Virus record (IMG/VR): IMGVR_UViG_3300045988_171089
Strand: one strand, 5' to 3'
From: a virus
DNA: 64,000 nt
Below are positions 2,826 through 41,485 of this stretch, piece after piece. The notes under the pieces are model-generated. The model was given only the letters and a program-made list of their open reading frames with translations, was not told where the DNA came from and ran no database searches. Each line of letters opens with the position of its first letter. The stretch's first letter is position 1. A program made the position numbers and the translations under genes.

Positions 2826-2915
2826 CTCAAAATCATGTGAAATAGGTAACAAGGTATAAAAAATACCCCCCTGAGTCATACGACCCAGAGGGGTAACCGA
2901 AAGGTTAGGGGCTAA

Positions 2916-4517
2916 CTAGCCCTTGTTTTCCCACGGCCAGCCAGCCGAGGTGCCACGCTCAAGAAGCGGGATAAGCTCGAAACCCTTATCAGTCAGACCA
3001 CCAAGCGACCAACGGCGCTCCTTAGCCTCCATATGTGCCGCCTCATAGCCTGCAAGGTTCCAGGTGAAGACGTTCACGTGCGCCGGTACATAGCGGTCAA
3101 GAACATCATCGACAGTGTACTCAGAACCCCACCACTTACGGGCACCGAGGCTCTGCTCATCACTAATGATAAGGATACGGTCATGACCAGCATAAGACTC
3201 ACGCAGAGCCTTAGCGGTATCAGTACCACCACGAGCCTCCGGCATGTCATTATCAACAACACGCAACAGGTCATTAGAGGTAATCTTAACCTTCTCAACC
3301 TGAGTATCGAACGCCACAACATCAACGCGACCCTTATTCTTCAGAGCAAAGGCGGCGGCGAACATGTTAGCGGCATCCTGACGCGACAGAGAGCTACGCT
3401 CAGACAGGCGGCAACCCATAGAGCCGGAACGGTCAAGAAGAAGCAGGGTACGACCCGGCAACTCCGGCACATTATCCAGCACACTATTAGCACCCGCCTG
3501 TAGTGCGGCGGCAAAATCAAGCGGCGCGTTCTTGTATGCGGCAAGGAAGTTAATCGGCATAGTCTTCGCACGGACAATAGCTTCCTCATCACGCAACTTA
3601 CGGTTAATCTTCTCGATAGTATCGTAAGACACACCCGCGTTGCTGATACGGCTCAGGTTCATACGAAGCGCCTGGTAACCCATATGGTCAATAAGATTAT
3701 CCCAAACCTCAGCCGGGATAACACCAATAGTACCCGCAATTACCTCATGGGTAAGACGCGCATCCTTGATGATACGGTCTGCGGATTCCTTATCGGAAAG
3801 AACCTTAATCTTCTCGTCCTTGGTGAGGTTCAAGAAGTCACGGCGTGCCTTCATGACGGACAGCTCTTCAAGGTTCGGCTCACGACCGTAAGCAGAATCA
3901 ATGATAGTGCCGTACAGGTTCTCGCGGTACTTATCAGACGGCTTCGGGTGGACAAGGTTCACCACGTCAGCAAGAGTGAAAGCACCCTTAGCCATACGAC
4001 CCTGCCACTTCAAAACACTGTTCTCAGTAACAGACTTATTCAGGGCATCAGCAATACCACGCTTCACAGCAGACGGCACCTTACGACCAAAACGGGTAAA
4101 CCAGTAAGCAAGGAACTCGCTAGACTCATCCAGACGACCAATAGCGGCGGCAACAAGGGCACGGTTACCACCAGTCAAACCAGCCTCCAGGCGTGCATGA
4201 ACAGCTTCAGCGGCAATCATTGCCGGTACAGCACGAAGACCTGCCTCCTGACGAAGCCAACCAATCAGACCCTCAAGCCAAACATTATCGTCTGCAACCT
4301 TCTTCACAAGACCAGCGATACGGTCAGCACGCGCGTCAGCCTTCTCATAGAACGTATCCTCATTCAGCGAGGTAACGGCGGCTAGGAACAGCTCAGCCTT
4401 CGGGGTACGCTTCCAGCCGGTACCACCCTCAAAGGTACTGATACGCTCGCCGGTAGTGTCAATCTTATTAGTCGCCTTATTAGCGGTCACATGGTTCTTA
4501 GTGTTGAATCGTCCCAT
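2916..4517 (-). CDS. rsr: Ro60/TROVE-domain protein with C-terminal vWA domain (Rsr-like, 533 aa)
   Basis: N-terminal FEGGTGW (Ro60 EGGtyy-like) TROVE region; C-terminal vWA with MIDAS DRSGSMG ... GGTDT ... ILIISDEQS; size matches Ro60 (~530 aa). Confidence 0.85.
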   Translation of the reverse strand: MGRFNTKNHVTANKATNKIDTTGERISTFEGGTGWKRTPKAELFLAAVTSLNEDTFYEKADARADRIAGLVKKVADDNVWLEGLIGWLRQEAGLRAVPAMIAAEAVHARLEAGLTGGNRALVAAAIGRLDESSEFLAYWFTRFGRKVPSAVKRGIADALNKSVTENSVLKWQGRMAKGAFTLADVVNLVHPKPSDKYRENLYGTIIDSAYGREPNLEELSVMKARRDFLNLTKDEKIKVLSDKESADRIIKDARLTHEVIAGTIGVIPAEVWDNLIDHMGYQALRMNLSRISNAGVSYDTIEKINRKLRDEEAIVRAKTMPINFLAAYKNAPLDFAAALQAGANSVLDNVPELPGRTLLLLDRSGSMGCRLSERSSLSRQDAANMFAAAFALKNKGRVDVVAFDTQVEKVKITSNDLLRVVDNDMPEARGGTDTAKALRESYAGHDRILIISDEQSLGARKWWGSEYTVDDVLDRYVPAHVNVFTWNLAGYEAAHMEAKERRWSLGGLTDKGFELIPLLERGTSAGWPWENKG

Positions 4518-4626
4518 GATAGGGGTTCCTTCCTATAGTTACTGTTTAGGGTGGCTGGTTGGTGCCCCTGTTCTGTTGTGTTTGCTTGTTTTTGGGTAAA
4601 AGAAATGGGGGTGCGGAGAACCAGCC

Positions 4627-5470
4627 TTGTCGAGGGTAGTTACTAGCCGACAAAGGCGACCAGTTTCGTTGCAAATTTACAGATTTGTTTGAAGTAACTC
4701 GACAAATTCACATCCACACCCCCAAAGGGGAGCAAATATATCACACTATATTCGCTAGTGCCCGTAGCAGGTTCGACCCTGCGTGCCAGCCTTTCGGTGC
4801 AACACCCCCTATTGGGGTGCGGGCTTTGAAGTGTTGGAATTGTAGAGAATGGAGCTTATCGAGGGTGTTTGACTAGTCTAAAGGCGACCAGTTCATGATT
4901 CTAAGCAATTCCCAAAATTGTTGAAGTAACTCGATTGAATCGCTTCTATAGGTTTAAATGGCGTATCGAATTGTTGCAAGAACAACTATCCGTTGCATTT
5001 AATTCATAACAGGCACACCTGTTATAGGCACCCTACGACACCTCTAGCCCCTCGCGAAAACGCTTAGGGTTACATGTAACCAAACCGGATTAGCTAACCA
5101 TTACTTCCAGTTTTTGTTACCCCGCAAGAATGATGCCAGTCTGCATCTCGTCAAAAATAAGGGGGTGGTTACGGAAGCTTGTAACCGGACGGTGGATGCA
5201 TTAGTTCACCTTCTTGAGGGTGCTGACAGCAACGATTTTGCCTTAGCCTTGGTTCGATTATGACTCGTTCATTAGAACCTATACTCATAGTGTACCATAA
5301 GCTGTCGATTTTAGCAACAGCTAACGACAGAAACATACAAACTTGTACAGATTTGATTAACGGTTAATCATACTCTCAAGTTATTATAGCAAACCTTGTT
5401 TAGGCCTGCAAGTGCCTGTAGCAGGTTCGACTCTGCGTGTCGCTTACCACCCACCCTTATGGTGGTACAG
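4627..5470. ncRNA. candidate Y-RNA / tRNA-like non-coding region adjacent to Ro60 gene (strand not resolved)
   Basis: 1.1-kb ORF-free gap next to rsr containing two paralogous ~80-nt hairpins (4627-4705, 4858-4935) with a covarying closing stem (TTGTCGAG/CTCGACAA vs ATCGAG/CTCGAT) and shared loop motif AAAGGCGACCAGTT; two T-arm-like hairpins GCAGG-TTCGAC(C/T)-CTGC (4767-4782, 5421-5436). Confidence 0.4.
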
Positions 5471-5621
5471 GCTCCATTGGGCTCGCGCCACCCTTTGAAA
5501 TATCCATATTGTAAAGTCTTCAGGTTTCCCTGTCGCCCCTACATATATAACTATAACGTACCTGCGCGGGGTATGCAAGTCGAAAACCAACTATTTTCGC
5601 GGGGGCTTCATCACACCCGTT

Positions 5622-5972
5622 CTACTGAGTGATATATGCTTCGATTCGACCGTTGCCACAGTGGACAATATGAGTATCCTTAGCCTTGACGCGGGTGTTA
5701 GTGGTGTTGGTGTACATGTTGGTGGTTGCCGCGAGGTTGTATCGGAGCCAGTGGGTAGCGTTGCCGCCCTTTTCCATGTTTCGGATTACGGGCTTGAGGT
5801 TGCTTGAGTTGAGGCGTTCTAGTGTTGCGCGGCGGGTGATGGTGGTGGTGGGTCGCCCCTTTTTGTCGTTGAGTCGGAGGGCGGTGATGGTGCCGGTCTT
5901 CTTGTCGTATTCGATGGTGATGCGCTGGCGGGTTCGCTTGTTGCGGCGGCTAAAGAGCTTGAAGATGTCCAT
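5622..5972 (-). CDS. hypothetical basic protein (116 aa)
   Basis: ORF track; Lys/Arg-rich N-terminus. Confidence 0.5.
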   Translation of the reverse strand: MDIFKLFSRRNKRTRQRITIEYDKKTGTITALRLNDKKGRPTTTITRRATLERLNSSNLKPVIRNMEKGGNATHWLRYNLAATTNMYTNTTNTRVKAKDTHIVHCGNGRIEAYITQ

Positions 5973-12429: not shown

Positions 12430-12663
12430 TTGGTGTACTTCCTTTCTAGAAGTGGTAGTGGATGCGGTGCCTAGTCTTGTCCGGCTAGTACCTTTGAGGT
12501 TCCCCCTCTTGCTTATGTAACCATTATGACACACCCCTAACCCTTATGCAAGTCAGATTCACGTGAATTAGGTCACATAGGGGATTACGGGGTGTAAAAA
12601 TAGAGTGTGCGAGAGGTTGCCAATTCATCTCCCGCACACCCTGGCTTATCACATGTTCGATTA

Positions 12664-13731
12664 CTAGCGGCGCTTACCGCGAGTCAAGAAGGCATTAGAA
12701 ACAACCTTGAAATGTGCGCGGTTAGCGAGTTCACGGCGCGGCTTACCATCTTTAAAGTACCATACGATACCTTCGGCGGTCTGACCGGGCGCTACCTGAG
12801 ACTCTACAGAGTCAGCCTGCTCAAGGGCGGCAAAGCCGTTACCCACCCATTCAATATCGAGGATAGGTACCCAGAGGTTCGCTTCCTTGAACAGGGATTC
12901 CACTTCGGCGTTAGATGCGTGGAAGGCACGGAAATCGGGCTGGTCGCCGGTGCTGAACTTGAAGTTACCCCCGATGCGGTTACAGAACAGTTCGCCCTGC
13001 ACCCATTCGCCTGGCTTGAGCTGGTCAAACACATAGGCGTGACGGCGGTAACCGTCAAGGTACTGCTTCCAGTTCTTACTATCCATTGCGTCTACCTTGA
13101 TGGAGCGGTCACGGTTAGCAATACGAATCTCTTCGGTGTCAATATCACGCCAAACGGTCATAGAGGTGCCGTCAATCTTCTCAGTAGCGTACACATCATT
13201 TGCAGTGACACTGCTCAGGAAGTCGATAGGGATATTCTGGACGCGCTCAGCGTCGGTCTTGGTAATGAAGTTGGGGAAAGCTTCTAGACCGTAGTCACCA
13301 CCGGTGAGAATCTTCTCCTCGACATGCTTAGTGACAATGCCATCGAAGTAAGTATCCACTTCTTCCTGAGTAGCATCTTCACTCAAACCTTCAAACTCAG
13401 AGACGGGCAAGATAAGACCCTGCGACAGGGTTTCACGCAGGTACATGGTGCGCAGTACTACGCCTTCAATATAGTGTCCATTGACAACGCGGGTTGCCTT
13501 CTTGCCACGGATAGGCTCAAACGCCGGGTGCTTGGTGTTGAGGATTGAGTCAATCTCAAAGTAAACACCCTTATCGCCTTCGGTCATGGTCTTGGGTGCT
13601 ACAACCCACCACAGGGTGCCTGCGGGTCGGACGGCGTGAATCTTATCTGCCGGGTTATTACATTCCTTCACTTCTTCAATGGTGGTAATGTGTGCGAGGT
13701 GTCGGATACCGTCTACAGCGGTAGAAGTCAT
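12664..13731 (-). CDS. ATP-dependent RNA ligase-like nucleotidyltransferase (355 aa)
   Basis: Covalent nucleotidyltransferase motifs in order: motif I KIDGTS (ATEKIDGTSMTVW), motif IV EGIVWYF, motif V FKVVS; KxDG(T/S) spacing typical of Rnl-type RNA ligases. Confidence 0.7.
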   Translation of the reverse strand: MTSTAVDGIRHLAHITTIEEVKECNNPADKIHAVRPAGTLWWVVAPKTMTEGDKGVYFEIDSILNTKHPAFEPIRGKKATRVVNGHYIEGVVLRTMYLRETLSQGLILPVSEFEGLSEDATQEEVDTYFDGIVTKHVEEKILTGGDYGLEAFPNFITKTDAERVQNIPIDFLSSVTANDVYATEKIDGTSMTVWRDIDTEEIRIANRDRSIKVDAMDSKNWKQYLDGYRRHAYVFDQLKPGEWVQGELFCNRIGGNFKFSTGDQPDFRAFHASNAEVESLFKEANLWVPILDIEWVGNGFAALEQADSVESQVAPGQTAEGIVWYFKDGKPRRELANRAHFKVVSNAFLTRGKRR

Positions 13732-18380: not shown

Positions 18381-19946
18381 TTATGCTTCCGCGTGTAGGC
18401 GTTCTGCTTCACACTGGATGTTGATTGCCGCGTTGAGGTCGCGGTCAATCACAGCGTGGCAGTGCCCACACTTATATACACGGTCGCTTAGAGTAAGCTT
18501 AGTGTCAGGTCGCTTACCACAGTTGCTACATGTCTGCGAGGACGGGTAATAGCGGTCGATAACCTGAATAACTGAACCATACCAGGCGGCTTTGTATTCA
18601 AGCTGAGTTCGGAATATACCGAAGGATACGTCGAGTACAGCTCGGTTGAGCCTGGCTTTCTGTGCAACGTTCTTACCAGGCTTTTTGATAGTACCTGATG
18701 CGGATGCGGTCATTCCAGTAACGTTAAGGTCTTCAATACCGATAAGTGTGTATCGGGTGGTTAGGTTTTTAGTGAGCTGATGCAGTCCAGTTTCACGGCG
18801 TAGCGCTGTGAGGTGGTGGGTTTTTGCCAGCTTACGGGCGGTCACCTTGCGGCGATTGGAACCCTTAACCTGTCGTGCAATTTTCTGCTGAAGCTTAGCG
18901 ATACGCTTCTCAGTGTGCTTGAGCCAGCGGGGGTTTTCGACGGTAGGGTTGGTTCCGTTGGTGAAGTTCACGCCACTATCGGGGTTGAAACGCTTAGGTG
19001 CCTTCGTGTCAGAGAGTGCCGCCATATACTTAACACCAAGGTCTACACCTACCGCACCCGCGTTCTTCTGCTTACGAGTAGGCTTAGGGGCGGGTACAGT
19101 TACTTCGACAAGGAAGGATACATACCAGCGGTCAGCTACCTGGGACACGGTGAAAGACTTGATTACACCACCCTTGCGGATAATACTCATCATGTGGCAG
19201 GTATTGCCGTGAATACGGAAAGTTCCAAGGTGCGCGAGGCGGACGTGACGGTAATCACTGATAGTAGGGGTGCTCTTGTCGCCGCGACGCTTCATGTTTT
19301 CTTTGACGCGCTTATATGCCGGTTCACCACGCAGGTACGCGGTTCCGTAACCACCCATAACTTCGGGTGCGTAAATAGTGAAAGAGTCACTATTAGATGC
19401 GCGACTTTTAAACTTAGGGGTACCCATCTTACCACCCGCACGCTTACCAGTACGCGAATCAAAAAAGTTCTTGAGTGCCTTATCAGCAGACTGTAGACCA
19501 GACATGAGGACACGACGCTTCGCAGTATGAAGCCACGGCTCCCTAGAACGCTCCTCGTCGCCCCACACTTCCTCCACAGGTGCACCTTCTTCGATAGCCT
19601 TAGCACAGGCGCGATGACGGGCAACCTCAGCAGTCAGCATCTTACTACTAAACGCCATATAACCCAGTGTCTTGAACTTAGGGTCTTCCTTGGTGAGAGT
19701 CTTAAGCTCAGCCTTAATCTCGTCATCAGACGCGCCCTCTTCGCGGCGCTTAGCCCAATACTTGTTGCGGGTGTGCATAACCTCAGTGTTATAACCAACA
19801 AGCATATTATAGGCATAACGAGAAGCACCACCATCACGCGCCAAAGCAACCAACTGCTCCTGAGTAGGGTCAAGGCAAAACTTAAACGCAACATGACGCT
19901 CAACGGTATCCGGCGACGTGCCGGTAGATTCAACAGTAGTGGGCAT
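18381..19946 (-). CDS. tnpB: TnpB (IS200/IS605-family OrfB, RuvC-like RNA-guided nuclease), ~521 aa from ATG 19946
   Basis: N-terminal AFKFCLDPTQEQ...ASRYAYN (OrfB_IS605 HTH); RuvC-I GVDLGV, RuvC-II IGIEDLNV, C-terminal zinc finger CSNCG...CGHC and RuvC-III RDLNAAINI; ORF track start 20045 includes a 33-codon upstream artefact. Confidence 0.85.
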   Translation of the reverse strand: MPTTVESTGTSPDTVERHVAFKFCLDPTQEQLVALARDGGASRYAYNMLVGYNTEVMHTRNKYWAKRREEGASDDEIKAELKTLTKEDPKFKTLGYMAFSSKMLTAEVARHRACAKAIEEGAPVEEVWGDEERSREPWLHTAKRRVLMSGLQSADKALKNFFDSRTGKRAGGKMGTPKFKSRASNSDSFTIYAPEVMGGYGTAYLRGEPAYKRVKENMKRRGDKSTPTISDYRHVRLAHLGTFRIHGNTCHMMSIIRKGGVIKSFTVSQVADRWYVSFLVEVTVPAPKPTRKQKNAGAVGVDLGVKYMAALSDTKAPKRFNPDSGVNFTNGTNPTVENPRWLKHTEKRIAKLQQKIARQVKGSNRRKVTARKLAKTHHLTALRRETGLHQLTKNLTTRYTLIGIEDLNVTGMTASASGTIKKPGKNVAQKARLNRAVLDVSFGIFRTQLEYKAAWYGSVIQVIDRYYPSSQTCSNCGKRPDTKLTLSDRVYKCGHCHAVIDRDLNAAINIQCEAERLHAEA

Positions 19947-20067
19947 AATAAAAAACTTCCTAAAATGGATGTGGACAATAAAAGCCCACCCCAAACCTAA
20001 CACTGGAAAACCAGCACCAGACCCAGGGAGGGCTTCAAAAAACAATAGTCACAATAAGGTGTAAAAG

Positions 20068-20114
20068 TAACCCCGGCGGGAATCAAACCCGCACAATCTG
20101 TGTAGGAGACAGAC
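20068..20114 (-). pseudogene. 3' fragment of a tRNA-Arg(CCT)-like gene (anticodon arm + T-arm + acceptor 3' strand; no D-arm/5' acceptor)
   Basis: TCTGT-CTCCTAC-ACAGA, GCGGG-TTTGATT-CCCGC then CGGGGTTA; closely resembles the 3' half of intact tRNA-Arg(CCT) at 20302-20373. Confidence 0.55.
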
Positions 20115-20301
20115 GCTCTAGAGTCACCCCCGCGTGCAAGTCATACAAGCCTTACAGTTTTGCGGATAGGCGAGCCAAAGCTTTACTTTGACGGTGACCC
20201 TCAAGCCGGTTACCCAGCTATCCTGGCCTTAACACGTTAATGTCCGTTTAACCTCTCCCGTCTCTCACAGGCGAGGGTGACACACCCTAGAGTGTGCTAC
20301 G
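20115..20301 (-). repeat. tRNA-linked structured repeat element, copy C
   Basis: Full-length copy between intact tRNA-Arg(CCT) and its displaced 3' fragment. Confidence 0.7.
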
Positions 20302-20373
20302 TGCCCCTGGCGGGAATCGAACCCGCACGACTTGTGTAGGAGACAAGTGCTCTATCCGTTAAGCTACAGGGGT
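20302..20373 (-). tRNA. tRNA-Arg(CCT)
   Basis: Acceptor ACCCCTG/CAGGGGC (A1-C72 mismatch), D-arm GCTT/GAGC, anticodon stem CTTGT/ACAAG loop CTCCTAC, T-arm GCGGG-TTCGATT-CCCGC. Confidence 0.7.
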
Positions 20374-20548
20374 GAAAGACGGGTGAAGGTATCAACACAC
20401 CAAAAGGTGCCGTCTGCATCAACCTCCACCCAACCGAGGTATAAAAACTAGCCGTATCACCGCTAGTGCTCAAACCCGAAAGAATGGACACAAACAGCCC
20501 TACTGACCTGTCAAATAAAGTTGAACCACCACTTTAGCAGTCCAACCG

Positions 20549-20623
20549 CACCCCCAACGGGATTTGAACCCGCGACCTCCGCCGTGAGAAGACGGTATCC
20601 TAGACCAACTAGACCATAGGGGC
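20549..20623 (-). tRNA. tRNA-Glu(CTC)
   Basis: Acceptor GCCCCTA/TGGGGGT, anticodon stem CCGTC/GGCGG loop TTCTCAC, T-arm GCGGG-TTCAAAT-CCCGT. Confidence 0.7.
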
Positions 20624-20662
20624 AAAACATAGGCAATAACCCATAATAGGTTATTACCCCAG

Positions 20663-20737
20663 TACCCCTCGCAGGATTTGAACCTGCAACCTGGCGGTTC
20701 GTAGCCGCCTGCTCTATCCACGTTGAGCTAGAGGGGT
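20663..20737 (-). tRNA. tRNA-Arg(ACG)
   Basis: Acceptor ACCCCTC/GAGGGGT, D-arm GCTC/GAGC, anticodon stem GGCGG/CCGCC loop CTACGAA, T-arm GCAGG-TTCAAAT-CCTGC. Confidence 0.75.
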
Positions 20738-20741
20738 TTAT

Positions 20742-20775
20742 GAAGCTCTCCAGGAAGGAGTCGAACCTGGAACCA
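20742..20775 (-). pseudogene. 3' fragment of a tRNA-Asn-like gene
   Basis: gaagctctccaggaaggagtcgaacctgg closely matches the 3' end of tRNA-Asn (gaagctctcccggaaggactcgaacc) at 20950. Confidence 0.5.
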
Positions 20776-20911
20776 GAGCCTACCTCATGAGTATGAGGAG
20801 GGCCTAACATTTTGTTAGACGGTGACCCTCAAGCCGGTAACCCAGCTATCCTGGTCTTGACACCACCCGAAAGCAATGTCCGTTTATACTCTCCCGTCTC
20901 TCACAGGCGAG
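20776..20911 (-). repeat. tRNA-linked structured repeat element, copy D
   Basis: Conserved core between tRNA-Asn(GTT) and the displaced tRNA-Asn 3' fragment. Confidence 0.65.
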
Positions 20912-20949
20912 ATATATAACACGCCACCAAAAAATGGTGAAGAGTGAAG

Positions 20950-21021
20950 CTCTCCCGGAAGGACTCGAACCTTCAACCAATCGCTTAACAGGCGACCGCT
21001 CTGCCATTGAGCTACGAGAGA
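20950..21021 (-). tRNA. tRNA-Asn(GTT)
   Basis: Acceptor TCTCTCG/CGGGAGA, D-arm GCTC/GAGC, anticodon stem GTCGC/GCGAT loop CTGTTAA, T-arm GAAGG-TTCGAGT-CCTTC. Confidence 0.75.
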
Positions 21022-21112
21022 ATATAGAGAAACAACCACTAGTCAGGTACACGCACACGGAAAGAAAGATTAAGAAACGTGGAGTGTAACCAAAACAAGG
21101 GGTATATTTCCC

Positions 21113-21150
21113 TTAGAAGCCTGGGGCGGAATCGAACCACCCTCTCCCGG
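21113..21150 (-). pseudogene. isolated tRNA 3' fragment (T-arm GGTGG-TTCGATT-CCGCC + CCAGGCT) with no matching 5' acceptor strand
   Basis: No complementary AGCCTGG found within 150 nt upstream on the minus strand. Confidence 0.4.
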
Positions 21151-21359
21151 CGACGAAGTAACAAGTACTGTAACACCAACTTTGGAAAGGTAACCAGTCA
21201 TGTATACTAAGTCGTTCAGGCGCATCACCAGATGCTACCAAGCCAAACGTGGAAACGTGCAGGTACCGAGCCTGCACCCACCGCAAAGGGTCGCTCTTCC
21301 TTGGAGACGTAACGCTTCCACTTATAAACACTAGAACAAAATCAACTAGTATTATCCGT

Positions 21360-21432
21360 TCTAGTGAAGAGCCTCCTACCGGACTTGAACCGGTAACCTC
21401 CTGTTTACAAGACAGGTGCTCTACCAATTGAG
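21360..21432 (-). tRNA. tRNA-Thr(TGT)
   Basis: Acceptor GCCTTCT/AGGAGGC, D-arm GCTC/GAGC, anticodon stem CCTGT/ACAGG loop CTTGTAA, T-arm ACCGG-TTCAAGT-CCGGT. Confidence 0.8.
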
Positions 21433-21434
21433 CT

Positions 21435-21506
21435 AAGAAGGCGGGGTGTGTGACGGGACTCGAACCCGCTACTACTTGCGCCACAAGCAAGCGCCTCGCT
21501 ATTCGG
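21435..21506 (-). tRNA. tRNA-His(GTG)
   Basis: Acceptor GTGTGTG/CACACAC, discriminator C, anticodon stem CTTGC/GCAAG loop TTGTGGC, T-arm GCGGG-TTCGAGT-CCCGT; no encoded G-1 (base -1 is T). Confidence 0.7.
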
Positions 21507-21508
21507 CT

Positions 21509-21582
21509 TCACACACAGTGCCCCCTACTGGACTCGAACCAGTGACCCACGCCGTGTAAAGGCGGCACTCTAACCAACTGAG
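21509..21582 (-). tRNA. tRNA-Val(TAC)
   Basis: Acceptor GCCCCTT/AGGGGGC, D-arm GCTC/GAGT, anticodon loop TTTACAC, T-arm ACTGG-TTCGAGT-CCAGT; only 2 nt from tRNA-His. Confidence 0.7.
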
Positions 21583-21682
21583 CTAAAGGGGCGAAACGCA
21601 TACTATGTCCACTATCTTCCATCAACCAGTGAAGGAAACCGCGCCCATTACCCGTATGCGAGAGGCAAAGAACCCGGTACAG

Positions 21683-21756
21683 TAGTCCCTGCTGGACTTG
21701 AACCAGCGACACCCACCGTATCAGAGTGGTGCTCTAACCTGCTGAGCTAACAGACC
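21683..21756 (-). tRNA. tRNA-Ile(GAT)
   Basis: Acceptor GGTCTGT/AGGGACT (one G.G mismatch), D-arm GCTC/GAGC, anticodon stem CCACT/GGTGG loop CTGATAC, T-arm GCTGG-TTCAAGT-CCAGC. Confidence 0.65.
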
Positions 21757-21849
21757 AGGGTACGCCACTATGAGTGGCATATATACTATCCACTTAGGAT
21801 AGTAGCTCACGTTCGAGGGTGGTACACCCTAGAAGAACGTGTTACGCAC

Positions 21850-21912
21850 AGCCCGCCGGATTTGAACCGACACCTCCGTCACCCAGCGCACTACCCGATT
21901 ATACTAAGGCTG
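21850..21912 (-). ncRNA. non-canonical tRNA-like element (good 7-bp acceptor ACAGCCT/GGGCTGT and T-arm GTCGG-TTCAAAT-CCGGC, but only 35 nt between them and no recognisable D/anticodon arms)
   Basis: Acceptor/T-arm complementarity unlikely by chance; middle region cannot be folded into a standard cloverleaf. Confidence 0.35.
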
Positions 21913-22038
21913 TTGCCGCACCCCTACAAGCCGTTCACGTGATTAACTCGTATGATGCCCCTCAAGGCTCATGACAACCTCAAGGCACGACATGCTTTAA
22001 AGAAAAATGTACAGCCAACATGCCAAAACTGCACATAG

Positions 22039-22113
22039 TGCACCCTGTGGGGCTCGAACCCACGACCCGGCGGTTAAGAGCCGCCTGCTCTACCTGCTGA
22101 GCTAAAGGTGCGC
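22039..22113 (-). tRNA. tRNA-Lys(CTT)
   Basis: Acceptor GCACCTT/AGGGTGC, D-arm GCTC/GAGC, anticodon stem GGCGG/CCGCC loop CTCTTAA, T-arm GTGGG-TTCGAGC-CCCAC. Confidence 0.8.
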
Positions 22114-22227
22114 GGCGTACTGGCTGAAAGGGCTCGAAAGCACCAGTACGCCTTAATCAGTATTATTCGACTTTTGTCTTTAGTAAGCTTCCTGAAAGGA
22201 GTTAAGTAAAAAAGGAAGCTTACCGAG

Positions 22228-22297
22228 CATCTTACAGGGCTCGAACCTGTGACCTCCACACCAAAGTGCGGCGCTCTACCAACTGAGCTCAAGATGC
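22228..22297 (-). tRNA. tRNA, anticodon uncertain (possibly TTG/Gln); anticodon stem poorly paired
   Basis: Perfect acceptor GCATCTT/AAGATGC, D-arm GCTC-AGTTGGTA-GAGC, T-arm ACAGG-TTCGAGC-CCTGT; candidate loop CTTTGGT. Confidence 0.45.
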
Positions 22298-22439
22298 CGT
22301 CACAGCACAAATCAACTATGTGCACAGGTTTCACTGTACTATGACACCCCAGAGAGGATTCGCGAGTTCCACTCAAGAGGTCAGGGACTTTCGCGTTTAC
22401 ACCCCTGAATAATTGTAACGCACCATATAGCGCGTTCAG

Positions 22440-22517
22440 TACGCCCTACGGGACTCGAACCCGTGCCACTTGTCCCAGTCGGTGACTCCAGGGCTCTACC
22501 ATCTGAGCTAAGGACGT
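22440..22517 (-). tRNA. tRNA, anticodon undetermined (78 nt; extra nucleotides between D-arm and T-arm)
   Basis: Acceptor ACGTCCT/AGGGCGT, D-arm GCTC-AGATGGTA-GAGC, T-arm ACGGG-TTCGAGT-CCCGT; middle region CCTGGAGTCACCGACTGGGACAAGTGGC does not give a standard 17-nt anticodon arm. Confidence 0.4.
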
Positions 22518-22679
22518 TACCGCACCCTAAGTAACCACCAAAGGGTACACCTAAAGGCTCGCGACTTCCTCTAGGTTACTCAAAGAAGGTGAATAGGTAA
22601 AAGCCCTCCTTTGAGAAGTATTGACACATACGTTACAGCAATGTTTAAAAGTGTAGTTGATGTGTCTAAACTACACTAG

Positions 22680-22761
22680 TACGCCCGGAGGGACTTGAAC
22701 CCTCACGTCCGAAGACACAGGAACCTAAATCCTGCGTGTCTGCCAATTTCACCACGGGCGC
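22680..22761 (-). tRNA. tRNA-Leu(TAG) (type II, long variable arm)
   Basis: Acceptor GCGCCCG/CGGGCGT, 3-bp D-stem, anticodon stem CAGGA/TCCTG loop TTTAGGT, variable arm GTC-TTCG-GAC, T-arm GAGGG-TTCAAGT-CCCTC. Confidence 0.8.
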
Positions 22762-22790
22762 TTATACAAGATAGTGATTATCTTGCAGAG

Positions 22791-22863
22791 TGGACCGTAT
22801 GGGAATCGAACCCATGACCTCCTGCTTGCAAAGCAGGCGCTCTACCAATTGAGCTAACAGCCC
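22791..22863 (-). tRNA. tRNA-Ala(TGC)
   Basis: Acceptor GGGCTGT/ACGGTCC (G3.T70 wobble, Ala identity-like), D-arm GCTC/GAGC, anticodon stem CCTGC/GCAGG loop TTTGCAA, T-arm ATGGG-TTCGATT-CCCAT. Confidence 0.8.
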
Positions 22864-22929
22864 TCACCCTTCAGTGTTATATATGACTGAAGGGGTGTTT
22901 GTTAAGAAGTGTTTTAGGCTTCTTGTTTG

Positions 22930-23002
22930 TGCGCCCTACGGGGCTCGAACCCGTGACCCGAAGATTAAAAGTCTACTGCTCTACCAACTGAGCTAAAGGC
23001 GC
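22930..23002 (-). tRNA. tRNA-Lys(TTT)
   Basis: Acceptor GCGCCTT/AGGGCGC, D-arm GCTC/GAGC, anticodon loop CTTTTAA, T-arm ACGGG-TTCGAGC-CCCGT; preceded by promoter 23015-23043. Confidence 0.8.
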
Positions 23003-23014
23003 TTACAAGGAACA

Positions 23015-23043
23015 AGTATATCATGTTCCTTTGTGTTTTGCAA
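23015..23043 (-). promoter_or_regulatory. promoter TTGCAA-N17-TATACT immediately upstream of tRNA-Lys(TTT)
   Basis: Near-identical to the element at 9014-9042. Confidence 0.6.
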
Positions 23044-23113
23044 AATTCACTATTTAGTGTTGTCAATTATCTAGTGTCTAAGTAAACAGTGTTTTGCTGT
23101 CTTCTTGACTTGC

Positions 23114-23131
23114 GTACTCCCAACGGGATGA
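23114..23131 (-). pseudogene. short tRNA-Glu-like 3' fragment (ATCCCGTTGGGAGTAC) flanking repeat copy E
   Basis: Resembles T-stem 3' half + acceptor 3' strand of tRNA-Glu. Confidence 0.35.
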
Positions 23132-23297
23132 GTCACCCCCGTATATACGGTAGGTGAGCCAAAGCTTTACTTCGACGGTGACCCTCAAGCCAGCCTAAGC
23201 TGACCCTGGTCTTGACACGTGAATGTCCGTTTAGATTAGCCACCTCTCCCAGTCTCTCACAGGCGAGGTGAGTGAACACACCCTAGAGTATGTTACG
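23130..23297 (-). repeat. tRNA-linked structured repeat element, copy E
   Basis: Full-length copy directly 3' of tRNA-Glu(TTC). Confidence 0.7.
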
Positions 23298-23370
23298 TGC
23301 CCCTAACGGGATTTGAACCCGTGTTACCGCCGTGAAAGGGCAGTGTCCTTGGCCGCTAGACGATAGGGGC
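23298..23370 (-). tRNA. tRNA-Glu(TTC)
   Basis: Perfect acceptor GCCCCTA/TAGGGGC, 3-bp D-stem, anticodon stem CTGCC/GGCGG loop CTTTCAC, T-arm ACGGG-TTCAAAT-CCCGT. Confidence 0.8.
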
Positions 23371-23409
23371 TTGTGTTGCATACCAGCTTCTCAGCTGAGT
23401 ACATGTTTT

Positions 23410-23438
23410 ATTATAGCACTCCCTCTCGGGGTATGCAA
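23410..23438 (-). promoter_or_regulatory. promoter TTGCAT-N17-TATAAT at head of tRNA array
   Basis: Minus strand consensus hexamers with 17-nt spacer. Confidence 0.55.
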
Positions 23439-34071: not shown

Positions 34072-34485
34072 TTAGAATCGGTGGATATTGCGGTCGATAA
34101 CAGAGTTGATAGTGACCCACACCCAGCCGTCTTCCTCTACGGTGAACTCAAGGTCAGTACCTAGATATTCACCTTCCTTGAGTGCTTCGTGACCTTCTCG
34201 CTGTCGTGCGTCAATGTCGTTAATGTAGGCGGTAACGTCCTGGGTGAGCTCTAGTGGGTCTTCGGGGTCGATAACACCTACGGAGTAGCCGTCTTCGTCG
34301 CAGAAGTCCACCATAGGAAGACCGTCGTCTTCGCCGTCTTCTTTCACGGCATCAATGTAAATCACATCCTTGTCCATTGCACGCTCTGCAAGTTCTTCAT
34401 AGGGAATGTTACGGACGTGCTTAAAGCTGAGCGAGAAGGTGATAGGTTCGATAGCACGCTTTTCAATCGGGGGCAGTTCAGTCAT
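34072..34485 (-). CDS. hypothetical protein (137 aa)
   Basis: ORF track. Confidence 0.5.
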   Translation of the reverse strand: MTELPPIEKRAIEPITFSLSFKHVRNIPYEELAERAMDKDVIYIDAVKEDGEDDGLPMVDFCDEDGYSVGVIDPEDPLELTQDVTAYINDIDARQREGHEALKEGEYLGTDLEFTVEEDGWVWVTINSVIDRNIHRF

Positions 34486-34566
34486 GGGTGATTCCTTTCA
34501 GTTGATGGGCGGCAACCCCCGCCCACCTCATTTGGGTGCGGGGGGGTGCACGGGTGGGTTAGAAGT

Positions 34567-34773
34567 TTAGTTCCGGGGTGATAAAGTCAATGCGGGTATC
34601 TTGGGTGGTGAAGGTAGAGTCAGTATGCACATAGTAGCGGTCATCTCATAATTGGTTTCCAGGGAGGCGTTATGGACATCCCTATTGGTACTACCTTCGG
34701 GACGCATCTTACCGGTGGTGTACTTACGGGTGTGCAGGCGGGCGTATAGCAGGTCATAAACAGTGTTGCTCAT
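34567..34773 (-). CDS. small hypothetical protein (68 aa)
   Basis: ORF track; promoter motif upstream at 34850-34930. Confidence 0.35.
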   Translation of the reverse strand: MSNTVYDLLYARLHTRKYTTGKMRPEGSTNRDVHNASLETNYEMTATMCILTLPSPPKIPALTLSPRN

Positions 34774-41345: not shown

Positions 41346-41485
41346 GATGGTTACCCTTTCGGTAGATAGATAGATAGTGGAACTGGCATCAGGGGTAGCA
41401 CCCCTTTGCTTTATATAACTATTATAACACACTCTAGTAGAGTATGCAAGCTGAAACCATGTGAAATGAGCCATGTGACTAACGG

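What the first reader, a model, noticed from the sequence alone, without database searches (positions are those of the whole stretch)
2916..5640. Ro60/TROVE-vWA protein next to a 1.1-kb ORF-free region with paired hairpins and tRNA T-arm-like modules: candidate phage Y RNA locus
Ro60 (Rsr) orthologues in bacteria and some phages are encoded next to Y RNAs. These have a Ro-binding stem plus a tRNA-like module.

The gap between rsr and the next gene has no plausible ORF. It contains:
- two paralogous hairpins of about 80 nt (4627-4705 and 4858-4935). Their closing stems covary (TTGTCGAG/CTCGACAA versus ATCGAG/CTCGAT) and their loops share a motif (AAAGGCGACCAGTT);
- two near-identical T-arm-like hairpins, AGTGCCYGTAGCAGG-TTCGACY-CTGCGTG (4767-4782 and 5421-5436), plus a GGTTCGATT motif at about 5247;
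- a perfect 14-bp palindrome GGTTACATGTAACC (5067-5080) and a GGTTAC-ggaagctt-GTAACC hairpin (5166-5185).

A family-type promoter at about 5550-5585 points leftwards through this region towards rsr. The RNAs could therefore be co-transcribed with rsr on the minus strand. The T-loop-like sequence, however, reads correctly only on the plus strand.
Basis: partly seen in the sequence, partly recalled or inferred. Interest (0 to 1): 0.7.

Follow-up and report, generated by a model that had tools for sequence, protein, structure and literature searches.

The report
Phage Y-RNA gene array beside Ro60

Summary
The main interpretation, a Y RNA locus beside rsr, holds. The anatomy does not.

Everything functional reads on the minus strand, the strand of rsr.
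- **Hairpins.** The two "paralogous hairpins" are the cores of two Y-RNA-like genes: A at about 4598-4724 and B at about 4841-4950. Both carry a conserved frame: terminal stem ending AGA/UCU, a WGYG loop, a 7-bp second stem, UUACUU, and a UUCUC 3' loop.
- **Family.** A covariance model of this frame finds 168 sites in 163 related phage loci, all on the rsr strand. It finds only these two sites in the 64-kb window. The frame has the same layout as the Ro60-binding module of Rfam YrlA. Some relatives nest a true tRNA-like T/acceptor/D domain inside it. The window RNAs carry other hairpins there, so they resemble YrlB.
- **"T-arms".** These are the third arm of two 59-65-nt mini-cloverleaves (4760-4824 and 5414-5472, minus strand). 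They show compensatory changes and are restricted to this lineage.
- **Promoters.** Sigma-70-like promoters separate the units.
- **Palindromes.** These lie in an unrelated, roughly 430-nt dispersed repeat that replaced the third unit.

No expression or binding data exist. I classify it as a new variant of a known kind.

The parts
2916..4517 (-). rsr: Ro60/TROVE + vWA protein, 533 aa
   Evidence: Pfam TROVE and VWA. NCBIfam Rsr, weak match. 417 homologues with E<=1e-20, mostly on 100-400-kb metagenomic or viral contigs. MIDAS DxSxS invariant.
2864..2895 (-). Intrinsic-terminator-like hairpin (14-bp stem plus U run) just after the rsr stop codon
4598..4724 (-). Y-RNA-like gene A, about 127 nt. 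S1 pairs 4713-4724 with 4606-4617. The 5' loop is UGUGAAU. S2 pairs 4698-4705 with 4627-4634. UUACUUC follows S2. An apical hairpin lies at 4642-4664. The 3' loop is AGGCUGGUUC. The RNA ends in a U-rich tail at 4605-4598.
   Evidence: CM R1: 49.8 bits, E=8e-10. MFE forms exactly this fold: -44.6 kcal/mol, z=-4.6, 0 of 200 shuffles as stable. Orthologous copy in every close relative.
4735..4743 (-). Possible extended -10 promoter (TGATATATT) for RNA A. This is inferred only, and no -35 box is present.
   Evidence: Read from the sequence. It resembles the family motif GTGTGnCATAAT.
4760..4824 (-). Mini-cloverleaf 1 (tRNA-like four-way junction). It has a 7-position acceptor-like stem, arm 1 CCCC/GGGG, arm 2 with a GAAA loop, a 4-nt linker, and arm 3 GCAGG-GUCGAA-CCUGC.
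   Evidence: CM R2: 85 bits. MFE is a four-way junction, z=-2.5. Covariation.
4841..4950 (-). Y-RNA-like gene B. The frame is intact, but the outer stem is cut to about 4-5 bp and its own promoter is lost, because the upstream repeat replaced them.
   Evidence: CM R1: 45.4 bits, E=9e-9. Relatives have a 13-bp S1. The window copy's MFE does not form the frame, whereas the L001 copy does.
4948..5373 (-). Dispersed non-coding repeat of about 430 nt. It replaces Y RNA C, cloverleaf 2 and the promoter of B. It contains the palindrome, the GGTTAC hairpin and GGTTCGATT.
   Evidence: Alignment with relatives. 74% identical to L001 131-592, which sits upstream of a different gene. At least five exact matches to one of its 18-mers in one 319-kb IMG/VR contig; blastn confirms homology at four of them.
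5383..5411 (-). Promoter P2: TTGCAG-N17-TATAAT. In relatives it starts Y RNA C exactly at the first base of its terminal stem.
   Evidence: Perfect pattern match. Hexamers are invariant and the spacer varies among 10 relatives. Spacing to S1 read from L001.
5414..5472 (-). Mini-cloverleaf 3: acceptor-like stem GCCUGUA/UACAGGC, arm 1 CCACC/GGUGG, short arm 2, arm 3 GCAG-AGUCGAAC-CUGC
   Evidence: CM R2: 61.7 bits. MFE is a four-way junction, z=-3.1, 0 of 200 shuffles. Compensatory variants in relatives.
5550..5578 (-). Promoter P1: TTGCAT-N17-TATAGT, the family-type promoter at the head of the array

Best explanation
The 1.1-kb gap is a minus-strand array of small non-coding RNA genes that lies upstream of rsr on the same strand and probably forms an operon with it.

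**The Y RNAs.** Two genes, A and B, encode Y RNAs. Relatives have a third, C. In each, the 5' and 3' ends pair into a terminal stem (S1, ending AGA/UCU). An asymmetric internal loop follows, with WGYG-NNN on the 5' side and ...UUCUC on the 3' side. Then comes a 7-bp second stem (S2) followed by UUACUU. This frame corresponds to the Ro60/Rsr-binding module of bacterial YrlA RNAs.

Inside the frame sits a swappable effector module. Some related phages have a permuted tRNA mimic there, in the order T arm, acceptor-like hairpin, D arm. The window RNAs have two small hairpins ending in a pyrimidine-rich loop, so they resemble YrlB.

**Inferred function.** The RNAs bind the phage Rsr ring. As in Deinococcus and Salmonella, they would gate it or tether it to a nuclease or repair enzyme. 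This would bias the turnover or repair of structured RNA during infection. The phage also carries 16 tRNAs and an Rnl-type RNA ligase.

**Transcription.** Each unit has its own sigma-70-like promoter. RNA A ends in an intrinsic-terminator-like stem plus U run, and rsr is probably expressed by read-through.

**The cloverleaves.** Small tRNA-like cloverleaves lie between the units. They have a 7-position acceptor-like stem contiguous with a third arm, but no D-loop or T-loop signatures. I infer that they are processing or 3'-end-protecting signals of the tRNA-punctuation kind (RNase P and 3' trimming). They would do the job that a genuine tRNA gene does immediately 5' of the Y RNA in other phage groups.

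**Shown:** sequence conservation, covariation, strand, and linkage to rsr.

**Inferred:** expression, Rsr binding, processing, and biological role.
For: **The frame is a conserved structure.**
- Regex plus stem parsing found 79 distinct instances, and all but one lie on the rsr strand.
- On 42 distinct trimmed sequences, 96.4% of cells pair, against 28-54% when the partners are slid. 11 of 13 pairs change on both sides. The covariation score is 0.761 against 0.185 shuffled, with 0 of 500 shuffles reaching it.

**The covariance model is specific.**
- R1 hits only 4718-4612 (-) and 4950-4841 (-) in the whole window at E<=10.
- It gives 168 hits at E<=0.01 in 163 related loci (1.04 Mb, both strands). 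All are on the rsr strand, and most lie within about 700 nt upstream of rsr.

**The frame matches YrlA.**
- The Rfam YrlA consensus reads acggCgaAUGCuuggGgaaCUAc. That is a 6-bp stem ending CGA, a 5-nt loop, a 7-bp stem, then CUA, which is the same layout.
- The frame encloses YrlA-like T/acceptor/D domains in L004, L030 and L017 (the first two are also sub-threshold Rfam YrlA hits). Both models also hit L084 and L086, at separate places.
- Chen et al. 2014 (PMC4201824) report that Y RNAs lie within 4 kb of rsr on the same strand. Each species has at least two. [quoted passage not shown] They are processed from polycistronic precursors, sometimes together with a tRNA.

**Folding.** RNA A folds into the frame with z=-4.6.

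**Cloverleaf.** RNAalifold finds the acceptor-like stem and arm 3 independently. Compensatory sets include GCAG/CUGC, ACAG/CUGU and GUAG/CUAC, and GCCUGUA/UACAGGC against GUUCAUA/UAUGAAC. The G.U variants are valid only on the minus strand.

**Promoters.** 21 sites against 1.09 expected, all on the minus strand. The hexamers are invariant while the spacers vary.

**Real tRNA in the same position.** In the groups whose Rsr is 53% and 47% identical, a tRNA-Ser gene ends 2 nt before the Y RNA.

**Literature parallel.** In Listeria phage CKA15, three highly transcribed unannotated regions lie within 2 kb upstream of an Rsr-like gene on the same strand (PMC12282133).
Against: - There are no expression, processing or binding data for any member. 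All relatives are metagenomic.
- Rfam YrlA and Y_RNA give no hit in the window, even at E<=10.
- The published 5' motif GNCGAAN0-1G is not matched literally. The window has AGAAGCG and GGAUGUG, so only GA-(A/U)-G is kept.
- The frame instances behind one search were selected partly by a pairing criterion. The strand and locus specificity of the model hits is the less biased evidence.
- The roughly 93-nt hairpin cores alone are not more stable than shuffles, with z between -0.7 and -1.3.
- Window copy B has lost most of its outer stem and its promoter, and its MFE fold is not the frame. It may be decaying.
- The cloverleaf occurs only in the group whose Rsr is 94-98% identical, plus one weak hit in L027. 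Much of its covariation is between paralogous copies. Its role is conjecture.
Confidence: 0.75

Rival explanations
1. Plus-strand reading, the option the first reader left open. On this view the repeated GCAGGTTCGACYCTGC hairpins are T-arms of tRNA-like modules, and the RNAs are transcribed antisense to rsr.
For: UUCGACC fits the T-loop consensus letters on the plus strand. The plus-strand versions of the cloverleaves fold about as stably as the minus-strand ones.
Against: - With the conserved stem, the loop is 6 or 8 nt, not 7, on either strand.
- The loop varies to GUUUGAC and ACUUGAC in relatives, which loses the T-loop C56 or T54.
- G.U pairs in the acceptor-like stem and arm 3 become A.C mismatches on the plus strand. 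Examples are UACGGGC, UAUGGAC, UACGGGU, UCUGC and CUUGC.
- All 21 family promoters and all genes and tRNAs are on the minus strand.
- All 168 frame hits lie on the rsr strand.
- Neither ARAGORN nor Rfam finds a tRNA hit here.
Confidence: 0.03
2. A purely cis-acting leader. The hairpins would be attenuators, terminators or Rsr autoregulatory sites in a long 5' UTR of rsr, not stable trans-acting RNAs.
For: - RNA A ends in a terminator-like stem plus U run about 80 nt before the rsr start codon.
- No separate rsr promoter is visible between them.
- The unit nearest rsr is the most widely conserved one.
Against: - Units occur in two to four copies per locus, each with its own promoter.
- In L084, L131 and L086, frame-bearing RNAs lie downstream of rsr.
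- The same frame carries a YrlA-type tRNA mimic in relatives, which is the architecture of a free RNP RNA.
- A cis role and a trans role do not exclude each other.
Confidence: 0.12
3. The cloverleaves are not processing signals but the effector (tRNA-mimic) half of composite Y RNAs. Each transcript would be a hairpin with the Rsr-binding frame, then a 9-12-nt linker, then a cloverleaf. The two modules would sit in tandem instead of nested as in YrlA.
For: - Hairpins C and B have no terminator and are followed 9-12 nt later by a cloverleaf.
- The next promoter's -35 box starts 1-2 nt after the cloverleaf's 3' end.
- In the L004-type relatives a YrlA-type RNA lies directly upstream of the rsr-proximal hairpin, where the window has cloverleaf 1.
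Against: - Cloverleaf 3 follows only a leader, with no hairpin before it.
- RNA A has no cloverleaf after it.
- The cloverleaf lacks the nearly invariant T and D arms that define the YrlA effector module.
- It is restricted to one lineage.
Confidence: 0.3
4. Non-functional remains: decayed tRNA genes and duplicated promoter spacers with no selected RNA structure.
For: - Window copy B is damaged, and a repeat has overwritten a whole unit, so the array tolerates loss.
- The cloverleaf is restricted to one lineage.
Against: - Compensatory double changes maintain every stem of the frame across phage groups whose Rsr proteins are only 39-62% identical to the window's.
- Unpaired motifs such as GA, UACU and U.CUC are invariant.
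- The cloverleaf stems keep pairing through double changes between copies.
Confidence: 0.05

Closest known systems
YrlA (Y RNA-like A; Rfam RF02553; Salmonella, M. smegmatis, mycobacteriophages; Chen et al. 2014, PMC4201824)
   Same: - Encoded next to rsr on the same strand.
- A terminal stem whose 5' strand ends in (C/A)GA, followed by a loop rich in (A/U)G.
- A 7-bp second stem followed by YUAY (UUAC here).
- An asymmetric 3' loop.
- Modular design, with a Ro60-binding module and an effector module.
- Relatives of this phage (L004, L017, L030) nest a T arm, acceptor-like hairpin and D arm in the same frame.
   Different: - Window RNAs A and B have no T or D arm. Their insert is two small hairpins.
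- The motif reads AGA(A/U)G(C/U)G instead of GNCGAAN0-1G.
- The 3' loop is often GGCUGGUUC.
- The Rfam model gives no hit in the window and only 31-38 bits on the YrlA-type relatives.
YrlB / Yrn2-type Y RNAs (S. Typhimurium YrlB, M. smegmatis YrlB, D. radiodurans Yrn2)
   Same: - A long hairpin formed from the RNA ends.
- A small pyrimidine-rich apical loop (CCUUUGU, GCCUUUA).
- More than one Y RNA per rsr locus.
- Encoded upstream of rsr, and in M. smegmatis cut from a common precursor.
   Different: - No sequence homology could be tested, because YrlB has no public model.
- The window RNAs form a tandem array of paralogues, each with its own promoter.
D. radiodurans Yrn2 - tRNA-Asp - Yrn1 polycistron (Chen et al. 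2014)
   Same: Y RNAs are interleaved with a tRNA-shaped element on one strand upstream of rsr. tRNA processing is expected to release the Y RNAs. Related phage groups have a genuine tRNA-Ser ending 2 nt before the Y RNA.
   Different: In the window lineage the tRNA is replaced by a 59-65-nt cloverleaf. It has no anticodon, D-loop or T-loop features, and promoters sit between the units.
tRNA-like 3'-end processing elements such as MALAT1 mascRNA, and mitochondrial tRNA punctuation (recalled from my own knowledge, not tested here)
   Same: A cloverleaf placed at the 3' side of a non-coding RNA could recruit RNase P to define RNA ends.
   Different: Those systems are eukaryotic or organellar. 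Cleavage has not been shown here.
Listeria phage CKA15/P100: three highly transcribed unannotated regions upstream of an Rsr-like gene (PMC12282133)
   Same: A phage with an Rsr-like gene and a tRNA cluster, and abundant non-coding transcripts within 2 kb upstream on the same strand. The authors proposed that these are Y RNAs.
   Different: The frame model R1 finds nothing significant in the P100 locus. One unannotated region upstream of the P100 rsr-like gene matches ROOL RNA instead.

Membership tests
Bacterial/phage Y RNA, YrlA family (RF02553) | Encoded within about 4 kb of rsr on the same strand | tested here: met
   RNA A ends 80 nt and RNA B 323 nt upstream of the rsr start, both on the minus strand. 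All 168 hits in relatives are on the rsr strand.
Bacterial/phage Y RNA, YrlA family (RF02553) | 5' and 3' ends pair into a stem interrupted by an internal loop (the Ro60-binding module) | tested here: met
   S1 and S2 are 96.4% paired, with 11 of 13 pairs changed on both sides. The layout matches the Rfam consensus structure.
Bacterial/phage Y RNA, YrlA family (RF02553) | GNCGAAN0-1G motif in the 5' strand | tested here: inconclusive
   The window has UAGAAGCG (B) and UGGAUGUG (A). G-A and the following G are invariant across 42 sequences, but the C is replaced. The position relative to S2 and YUAY matches.
Bacterial/phage Y RNA, YrlA family (RF02553) | Conserved YUAY after the second stem | tested here: met
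   UACU of UUACUU is invariant in 42 of 42 sequences.
Bacterial/phage Y RNA, YrlA family (RF02553) | Nested tRNA-like domain with nearly invariant T and D arms and an acceptor-like hairpin | tested here: not met
   The inserts of window A and B contain no T or D arm. The domain is present in relatives L004, L030 and L017. L084 and L086 have YrlA hits too.
Bacterial/phage Y RNA, YrlA family (RF02553) | Score at or above the Rfam gathering threshold (69 bits) | tested here: not met
   No hit in the window at gathering or at E<=10.
Bacterial/phage Y RNA, YrlA family (RF02553) | Bound by Rsr, and dependent on Rsr for accumulation | not testable with these tools
   Needs RIP, EMSA or genetics.
YrlB/Yrn2-type Y RNA | [quoted passage not shown] | tested here: met
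   The MFE of A has S1, S2 and an apical 8-bp hairpin with loop CCUUUGU. B has loop GCCUUUA. The description comes from PMC4201824.
YrlB/Yrn2-type Y RNA | Co-immunoprecipitates with Rsr | not testable with these tools
   No data.
tRNA (for the cloverleaves) | Cloverleaf with a 7-bp acceptor stem contiguous with the 3'-proximal arm | tested here: met
   MFE four-way junctions. A 7-position closing stem directly abuts arm 3, fully paired in cloverleaf 3 and with one C.A mismatch in cloverleaf 1.
tRNA (for the cloverleaves) | 7-nt T loop (TPsiCRA), D loop with GG, 7-nt anticodon loop | tested here: not met
   Arm 3 has a loop of 6 or 8 nt (GUCRAR). Arm 2 is a 4-5-nt GNRA-type loop. Arm 1 has a 4-5-nt loop.
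tRNA (for the cloverleaves) | Recognised by ARAGORN or the Rfam tRNA model | tested here: not met

The most novel reading that the evidence does not exclude
In this lineage of uncultivated, apparently human-associated jumbo phages, the Y RNA system may have been rebuilt. The tRNA-mimic module would have been uncoupled from the Ro60-binding frame and turned into stand-alone mini-tRNA-like elements that punctuate an array of promoter - Y RNA - cloverleaf cassettes. The freed effector position would carry a new arm. Its helix CUGGUC/GACUAG, with a G.U wobble, resembles the metazoan Ro60-binding helix as I recall it. That arm might recruit a second Rsr ring or a different partner. If so, this would be a modular, rapidly evolving phage toolkit of Ro60 adaptors rather than a single conserved Y RNA.
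Probability: 0.2. Interest if true: 0.75.

Novelty: new variant of a known kind. Interest (0 to 1): 0.55.

Why it matters
Ro60-Y RNA particles are conserved from bacteria to humans, yet what they do in phages is unknown. According to the 2014 survey, Y RNAs had been detected experimentally in only two bacterial species before that study examined a third.

This locus, together with more than 100 related metagenomic loci, defines a phage Y RNA subfamily that the public model misses. It shows one Ro60-binding frame carrying interchangeable effector modules: a tRNA mimic in some phages and novel hairpins in others. It also shows tRNAs or tRNA-like cloverleaves used as neighbours that probably set RNA ends.

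This gives a sequence-defined set of RNAs for testing three questions:
- how Rsr recognises Y RNA;
- what the effector module recruits;
- why large phages with tRNA sets and RNA ligases carry this machinery.

One plausible answer to the last question is that it counters host attacks on tRNA or rRNA.

Tried and rejected
1. **Rfam searches.** Gathering threshold on the whole window, and E<=10 on 4450-5700. There was no Y RNA, YrlA or tRNA hit in the gap. I judged this uninformative once clear YrlA-type relatives also fell far below threshold.
2. **Megablast against phage genomes.** Neither the locus nor 20 kb of the window found a match.
3. **Thermodynamic stability of the ~93-nt hairpin cores.** Neither strand was significant. 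Only full-length RNA A and the cloverleaves stand out.
4. **Cloverleaf arm-3 loop GUCGAA as the Rsr motif GNCGAA.** Rejected, because the G of CGA varies to A in relatives, giving GUCAAA and GUCAAG.
5. **Apical CUGGUC/GACUAG helix as the conserved Rsr site.** It is not conserved outside this lineage. I kept it only as an unexplained resemblance.
6. **Cloverleaf model R2 on 82 more distant loci.** Only one weak hit, in L027. A weak window hit at 23376-23438 is a family promoter.
7. **Frame model R1 on the rsr-like locus of Listeria phage P100.** Nothing significant.
8. **The 430-nt segment as a Y RNA or a known RNA.** No R1 or Rfam hit. It proved to be a dispersed repeat.
9. **MAFFT/RNAalifold on full-length A, B and C together.** This recovered S1 but misaligned S2.
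10. **Review PMC10870794.** Not held in the library.

Full report
**1. Observation**

The ORF at 2916-4517 (-) encodes a 533-aa TROVE + vWA protein.
- Its best annotated phage relatives are actinophage 'Ro-like RNA binding proteins', at up to 39% identity.
- 417 homologues with E<=1e-20 occur in metagenomes, many on 100-400-kb contigs.
- The MIDAS motif DxSxS is invariant among 37 of them.

The gap 4518-5621 contains only short ORFs. Gene callers found nothing in the equivalent gap of a 95% relative.

- the two hairpins with shared 14-mers (D7 and D8);
- the 32-nt, 91%-identical 'T-arm-like' repeat (D2);
- the palindrome at 5068-5081 and the GGTTAC hairpin at 5167-5186;
- a leftward promoter at 5578-5550.

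**2. Strand**

All ORFs, all 16 tRNAs and all 21 copies of the promoter family TTGCA-N18-TATAAT are on the minus strand. Only 1.09 promoter matches are expected by chance.

On the minus strand, the apical parts of both hairpins form an 8-bp and a 7-bp helix, ACUGGUCG/CGGCUAGU and ACUGGUC/GACUAGU. Their G.U pairs would be A.C mismatches on the plus strand.

**3. Relatives**

I collected 166 loci encoding Rsr homologues 35-98% identical to the window's.

The twelve close relatives (94-98%) carry three tandem units of about 240 nt upstream of rsr. Each unit is a cloverleaf, then a promoter, then a long hairpin.

The window keeps units A and B and the first cloverleaf. Hairpin C, cloverleaf 2 and the promoter of B are replaced by about 430 nt of unrelated sequence.

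**4. The frame**

Across nearly all phage groups, the RNAs next to rsr share one frame:

5'-[S1 ...AGA]-(A/U)G(C/U)G-NNN-[S2, 7 nt]-(U/A)UACUU-[insert]-[S2']-N-...UUCUC-[S1']

The copy nearest rsr usually ends in a U run.

- **Covariation.** On 42 distinct trimmed instances, 96.4% of cells pair, against 28-54% for slid partners. 11 of 13 pairs change on both sides. The covariation score is 0.761 against 0.185 for shuffles, with 0 of 500 shuffles reaching it. These instances were chosen partly by pairing, so I also built a covariance model, R1.
- **Window scan.** R1 finds only 4718-4612 (-) at 49.8 bits and 4950-4841 (-) at 45.4 bits in the whole window at E<=10.
- **Locus scan.** R1 finds 168 sites in 1.04 Mb of related loci. 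Every one is on the rsr strand, and most lie within about 700 nt upstream of rsr.

**5. Relation to known Y RNAs**

Chen et al. 2014 (PMC4201824) describe bacterial Y RNAs as follows:
- they are encoded within 4 kb of rsr on its strand;
- they have a Ro60-binding module whose 5' strand carries GNCGAAN0-1G, and a YUAY after the next stem;
- in YrlA, a nested tRNA mimic follows in the order V, T, acceptor-like, D;
- the RNAs are cut from polycistronic precursors, in Deinococcus together with tRNA-Asp.

The Rfam YrlA consensus is a 6-bp stem ending CGA, the loop AUGCu, a 7-bp stem, then CUA. This is the same layout as the frame, which has AGA, WGYGNNN, 7 bp and UUAC.

In L004, L030 and L017 the frame encloses canonical T arms, acceptor-like hairpins and D arms. 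L004 and L030 give sub-threshold YrlA hits there, and L084 and L086 give such hits at other sites; the scores are 31-38 bits with E from 4e-5 to 2e-3. These clear cases miss the 69-bit cut-off, so the negative Rfam result in the window carries little weight.

The window's RNAs have the frame but no T or D arm. Their inserts are two small hairpins ending in the loops CCUUUGU and GCCUUUA. They are therefore not YrlA members. They fit the description of YrlB/Yrn2.

RNA A (4598-4726) folds into exactly this structure, at -44.6 kcal/mol with z=-4.6.

Window copy B has lost the outer 7-8 bp of S1 and its promoter, and its MFE fold is a different structure. The intact L001 copy does fold into the frame, with z=-4.0.

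**6. The 'T-arms'**

Read on the minus strand, each repeat is the third arm of a 59-65-nt four-way junction:
- a closing stem of 7 positions, fully paired in cloverleaf 3 and with one C.A mismatch in cloverleaf 1;
- arm 1;
- a short arm 2, often closed by a GNRA loop;
- a 4-nt linker;
- arm 3, GCAG(G)-GUCRAR-(C)CUGC, running straight into the 3' strand of the closing stem.

RNAalifold finds the closing stem and arm 3 without guidance. The compensatory sets are GCCUGUA/UACAGGC, GUUCAUA/UAUGAAC and GCCCGCA/UACGGGC for the closing stem, and GCAG/CUGC, ACAG/CUGU and GUAG/CUAC for arm 3. For the full structure, 90.8% of cells pair, against 36-49% when slid. Several variants are G.U only on the minus strand.

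The loop is 6 or 8 nt on either strand and varies at T-loop-critical positions. Neither ARAGORN nor Rfam calls a tRNA here.

Model R2 scores 85 and 61.7 bits in the window. Outside the close group it gives only one weak hit, in L027. The cloverleaf is therefore specific to this lineage.

In the groups whose Rsr is 53% and 47% identical, a genuine tRNA-Ser(GCU) gene ends 2 nt before the Y RNA.

**7. Transcription signals**

- P1 (5578-5550) and P2 (5411-5383) belong to the promoter family.
- Among relatives their hexamers are invariant while the spacers vary.
- In L001, the -10 box of the promoter corresponding to P2 lies 6 nt before the first base of hairpin C's terminal stem.
- RNA A is preceded by an extended -10-like TGATATATT. 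It ends in a GC-rich stem plus UUUCUUUU.
- No promoter is seen between RNA A and rsr, so rsr is probably expressed by read-through.
- A strong terminator follows rsr.

**8. The 430-nt segment (about 4948-5373)**

This segment is 74% identical to an intergenic element that lies upstream of a different gene in L001. The window's orthologue of that gene lacks the element. An 18-nt probe taken from it matches at least five places in one 319-kb IMG/VR contig, and blastn confirms homology to the segment at four of them.

The palindrome and the GGTTAC hairpin are not conserved in the L001 copy. GGTTCGATT lies in this same repeat and forms no T-arm stem there. None of these is part of the Y RNA system.

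**9. Mechanism**

*Shown:* a conserved, covarying, strand-specific, rsr-linked RNA architecture that shares the layout of the YrlA Ro60-binding module.

*Inferred from the Deinococcus and Salmonella work cited above:*
- the RNAs bind the phage Rsr ring through the frame;
- they use the variable arm to gate it or tether it to a partner;
- this affects the degradation or repair of structured RNA during infection.

The window also encodes an Rnl-type RNA ligase, a TnpB and 16 tRNAs.

I infer that the cloverleaves are tRNA-like punctuation or 3'-end caps. A tandem 'hairpin + cloverleaf' composite RNA is the main alternative.

**10. Literature**

Phage Y RNAs have been predicted only in mycobacteriophages. 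TROVE proteins 'with a tRNA-like partner' are mentioned for jumbo phages (PMC7824862). Three abundant unannotated transcripts upstream of an Rsr-like gene were seen in Listeria phage CKA15 (PMC12282133).

My frame model does not hit the P100 locus. One unannotated region upstream of its rsr-like gene matches ROOL RNA. I found no paper in the library describing this subfamily.

**11. Verdict**

This is a real feature, and a new variant of a known kind. The strand and the T-arm reading are wrong.

Noticed in passing
window 4948-5373 (-); L001 131-592; L168, L172, L173, L174: A non-coding element of about 430-460 nt recurs in these jumbo phage genomes. An 18-mer from it matches at least five places in one 319-kb contig, and blastn confirms homology at four of them. 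It starts at a promoter -10 box. In L001 it ends at the ribosome-binding site of a 122-aa gene. In the window it has instead overwritten one Y RNA unit. It could be a mobile leader cassette or an unknown RNA. Rfam finds nothing.
   Followed up: partly
window, 21 sites, e.g. 2797-2825, 12523-12551, 41421-41449 (all minus strand): A phage promoter family, TTGCAyA...(A/G)GTGTG(T/C)CATAAT. All 21 sites are on the minus strand, against about 1 expected by chance.
   Followed up: partly
L177 (Listeria phage P100, DQ004855) 34073-34624 (-): There is a ROOL RNA match at 86 bits, E=7e-17, below the gathering score of 99.1. It lies between tRNA genes about 1 kb upstream of the 506-aa gp165, which appears to be the counterpart of the Rsr-like CKA15_055. 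It may be one of the 'highly transcribed unannotated regions' reported for phage CKA15.
   Followed up: no
window 12664-13731 (-), 18381-20045 (-), 20068-23370 (-): An Rnl-type RNA ligase (PF09414, TIGR02306-like), a TnpB/IS605 OrfB gene and a cluster of 15 tRNA genes lie 8-19 kb from rsr. One tRNA at 22225-22297 has an irregular anticodon loop. A borderline 58-nt tRNA hit at 20068-20125 lies next to tnpB.
   Followed up: no
L004 1183-2730 (+) and 7213-8760 (-); L002 1810-3171: In a relative whose Rsr is 60% identical, two 515-aa TnpB-like genes flank the rsr/Y RNA locus. In L002, a PolyA_pol/CCA-adding-family gene and many tRNA genes surround rsr.
   Followed up: no
L068 about 2285-2385 (also L073, L079): In some loci of the group whose Rsr is 47% identical, the tRNA-Ser gene before the Y RNA is replaced. 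The replacement keeps the acceptor ends and a T arm but has a longer, unrelated interior. It may be an interrupted or degenerate tRNA.
   Followed up: no
L017 4173-4246 (+): A match to bacterial small SRP RNA at 36.9 bits, against a gathering score of 40. It lies downstream of rsr among tRNA genes in a relative whose Rsr is 62% identical.
   Followed up: no
window 4642-4664 and 4870-4892 (-): The apical helices of RNAs A and B read CUGGUC(G)/(C)GrCUAG with a G.U wobble. As I recall it, this matches the lower-stem Ro60-binding helix of human Y RNAs (GGCUGGUCCGA.../...UUGACUAGUC). The 3' loop of RNA A also reads GGCUGGUUC. These sequences are not conserved outside this lineage, and their significance is unknown.
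   Followed up: partly
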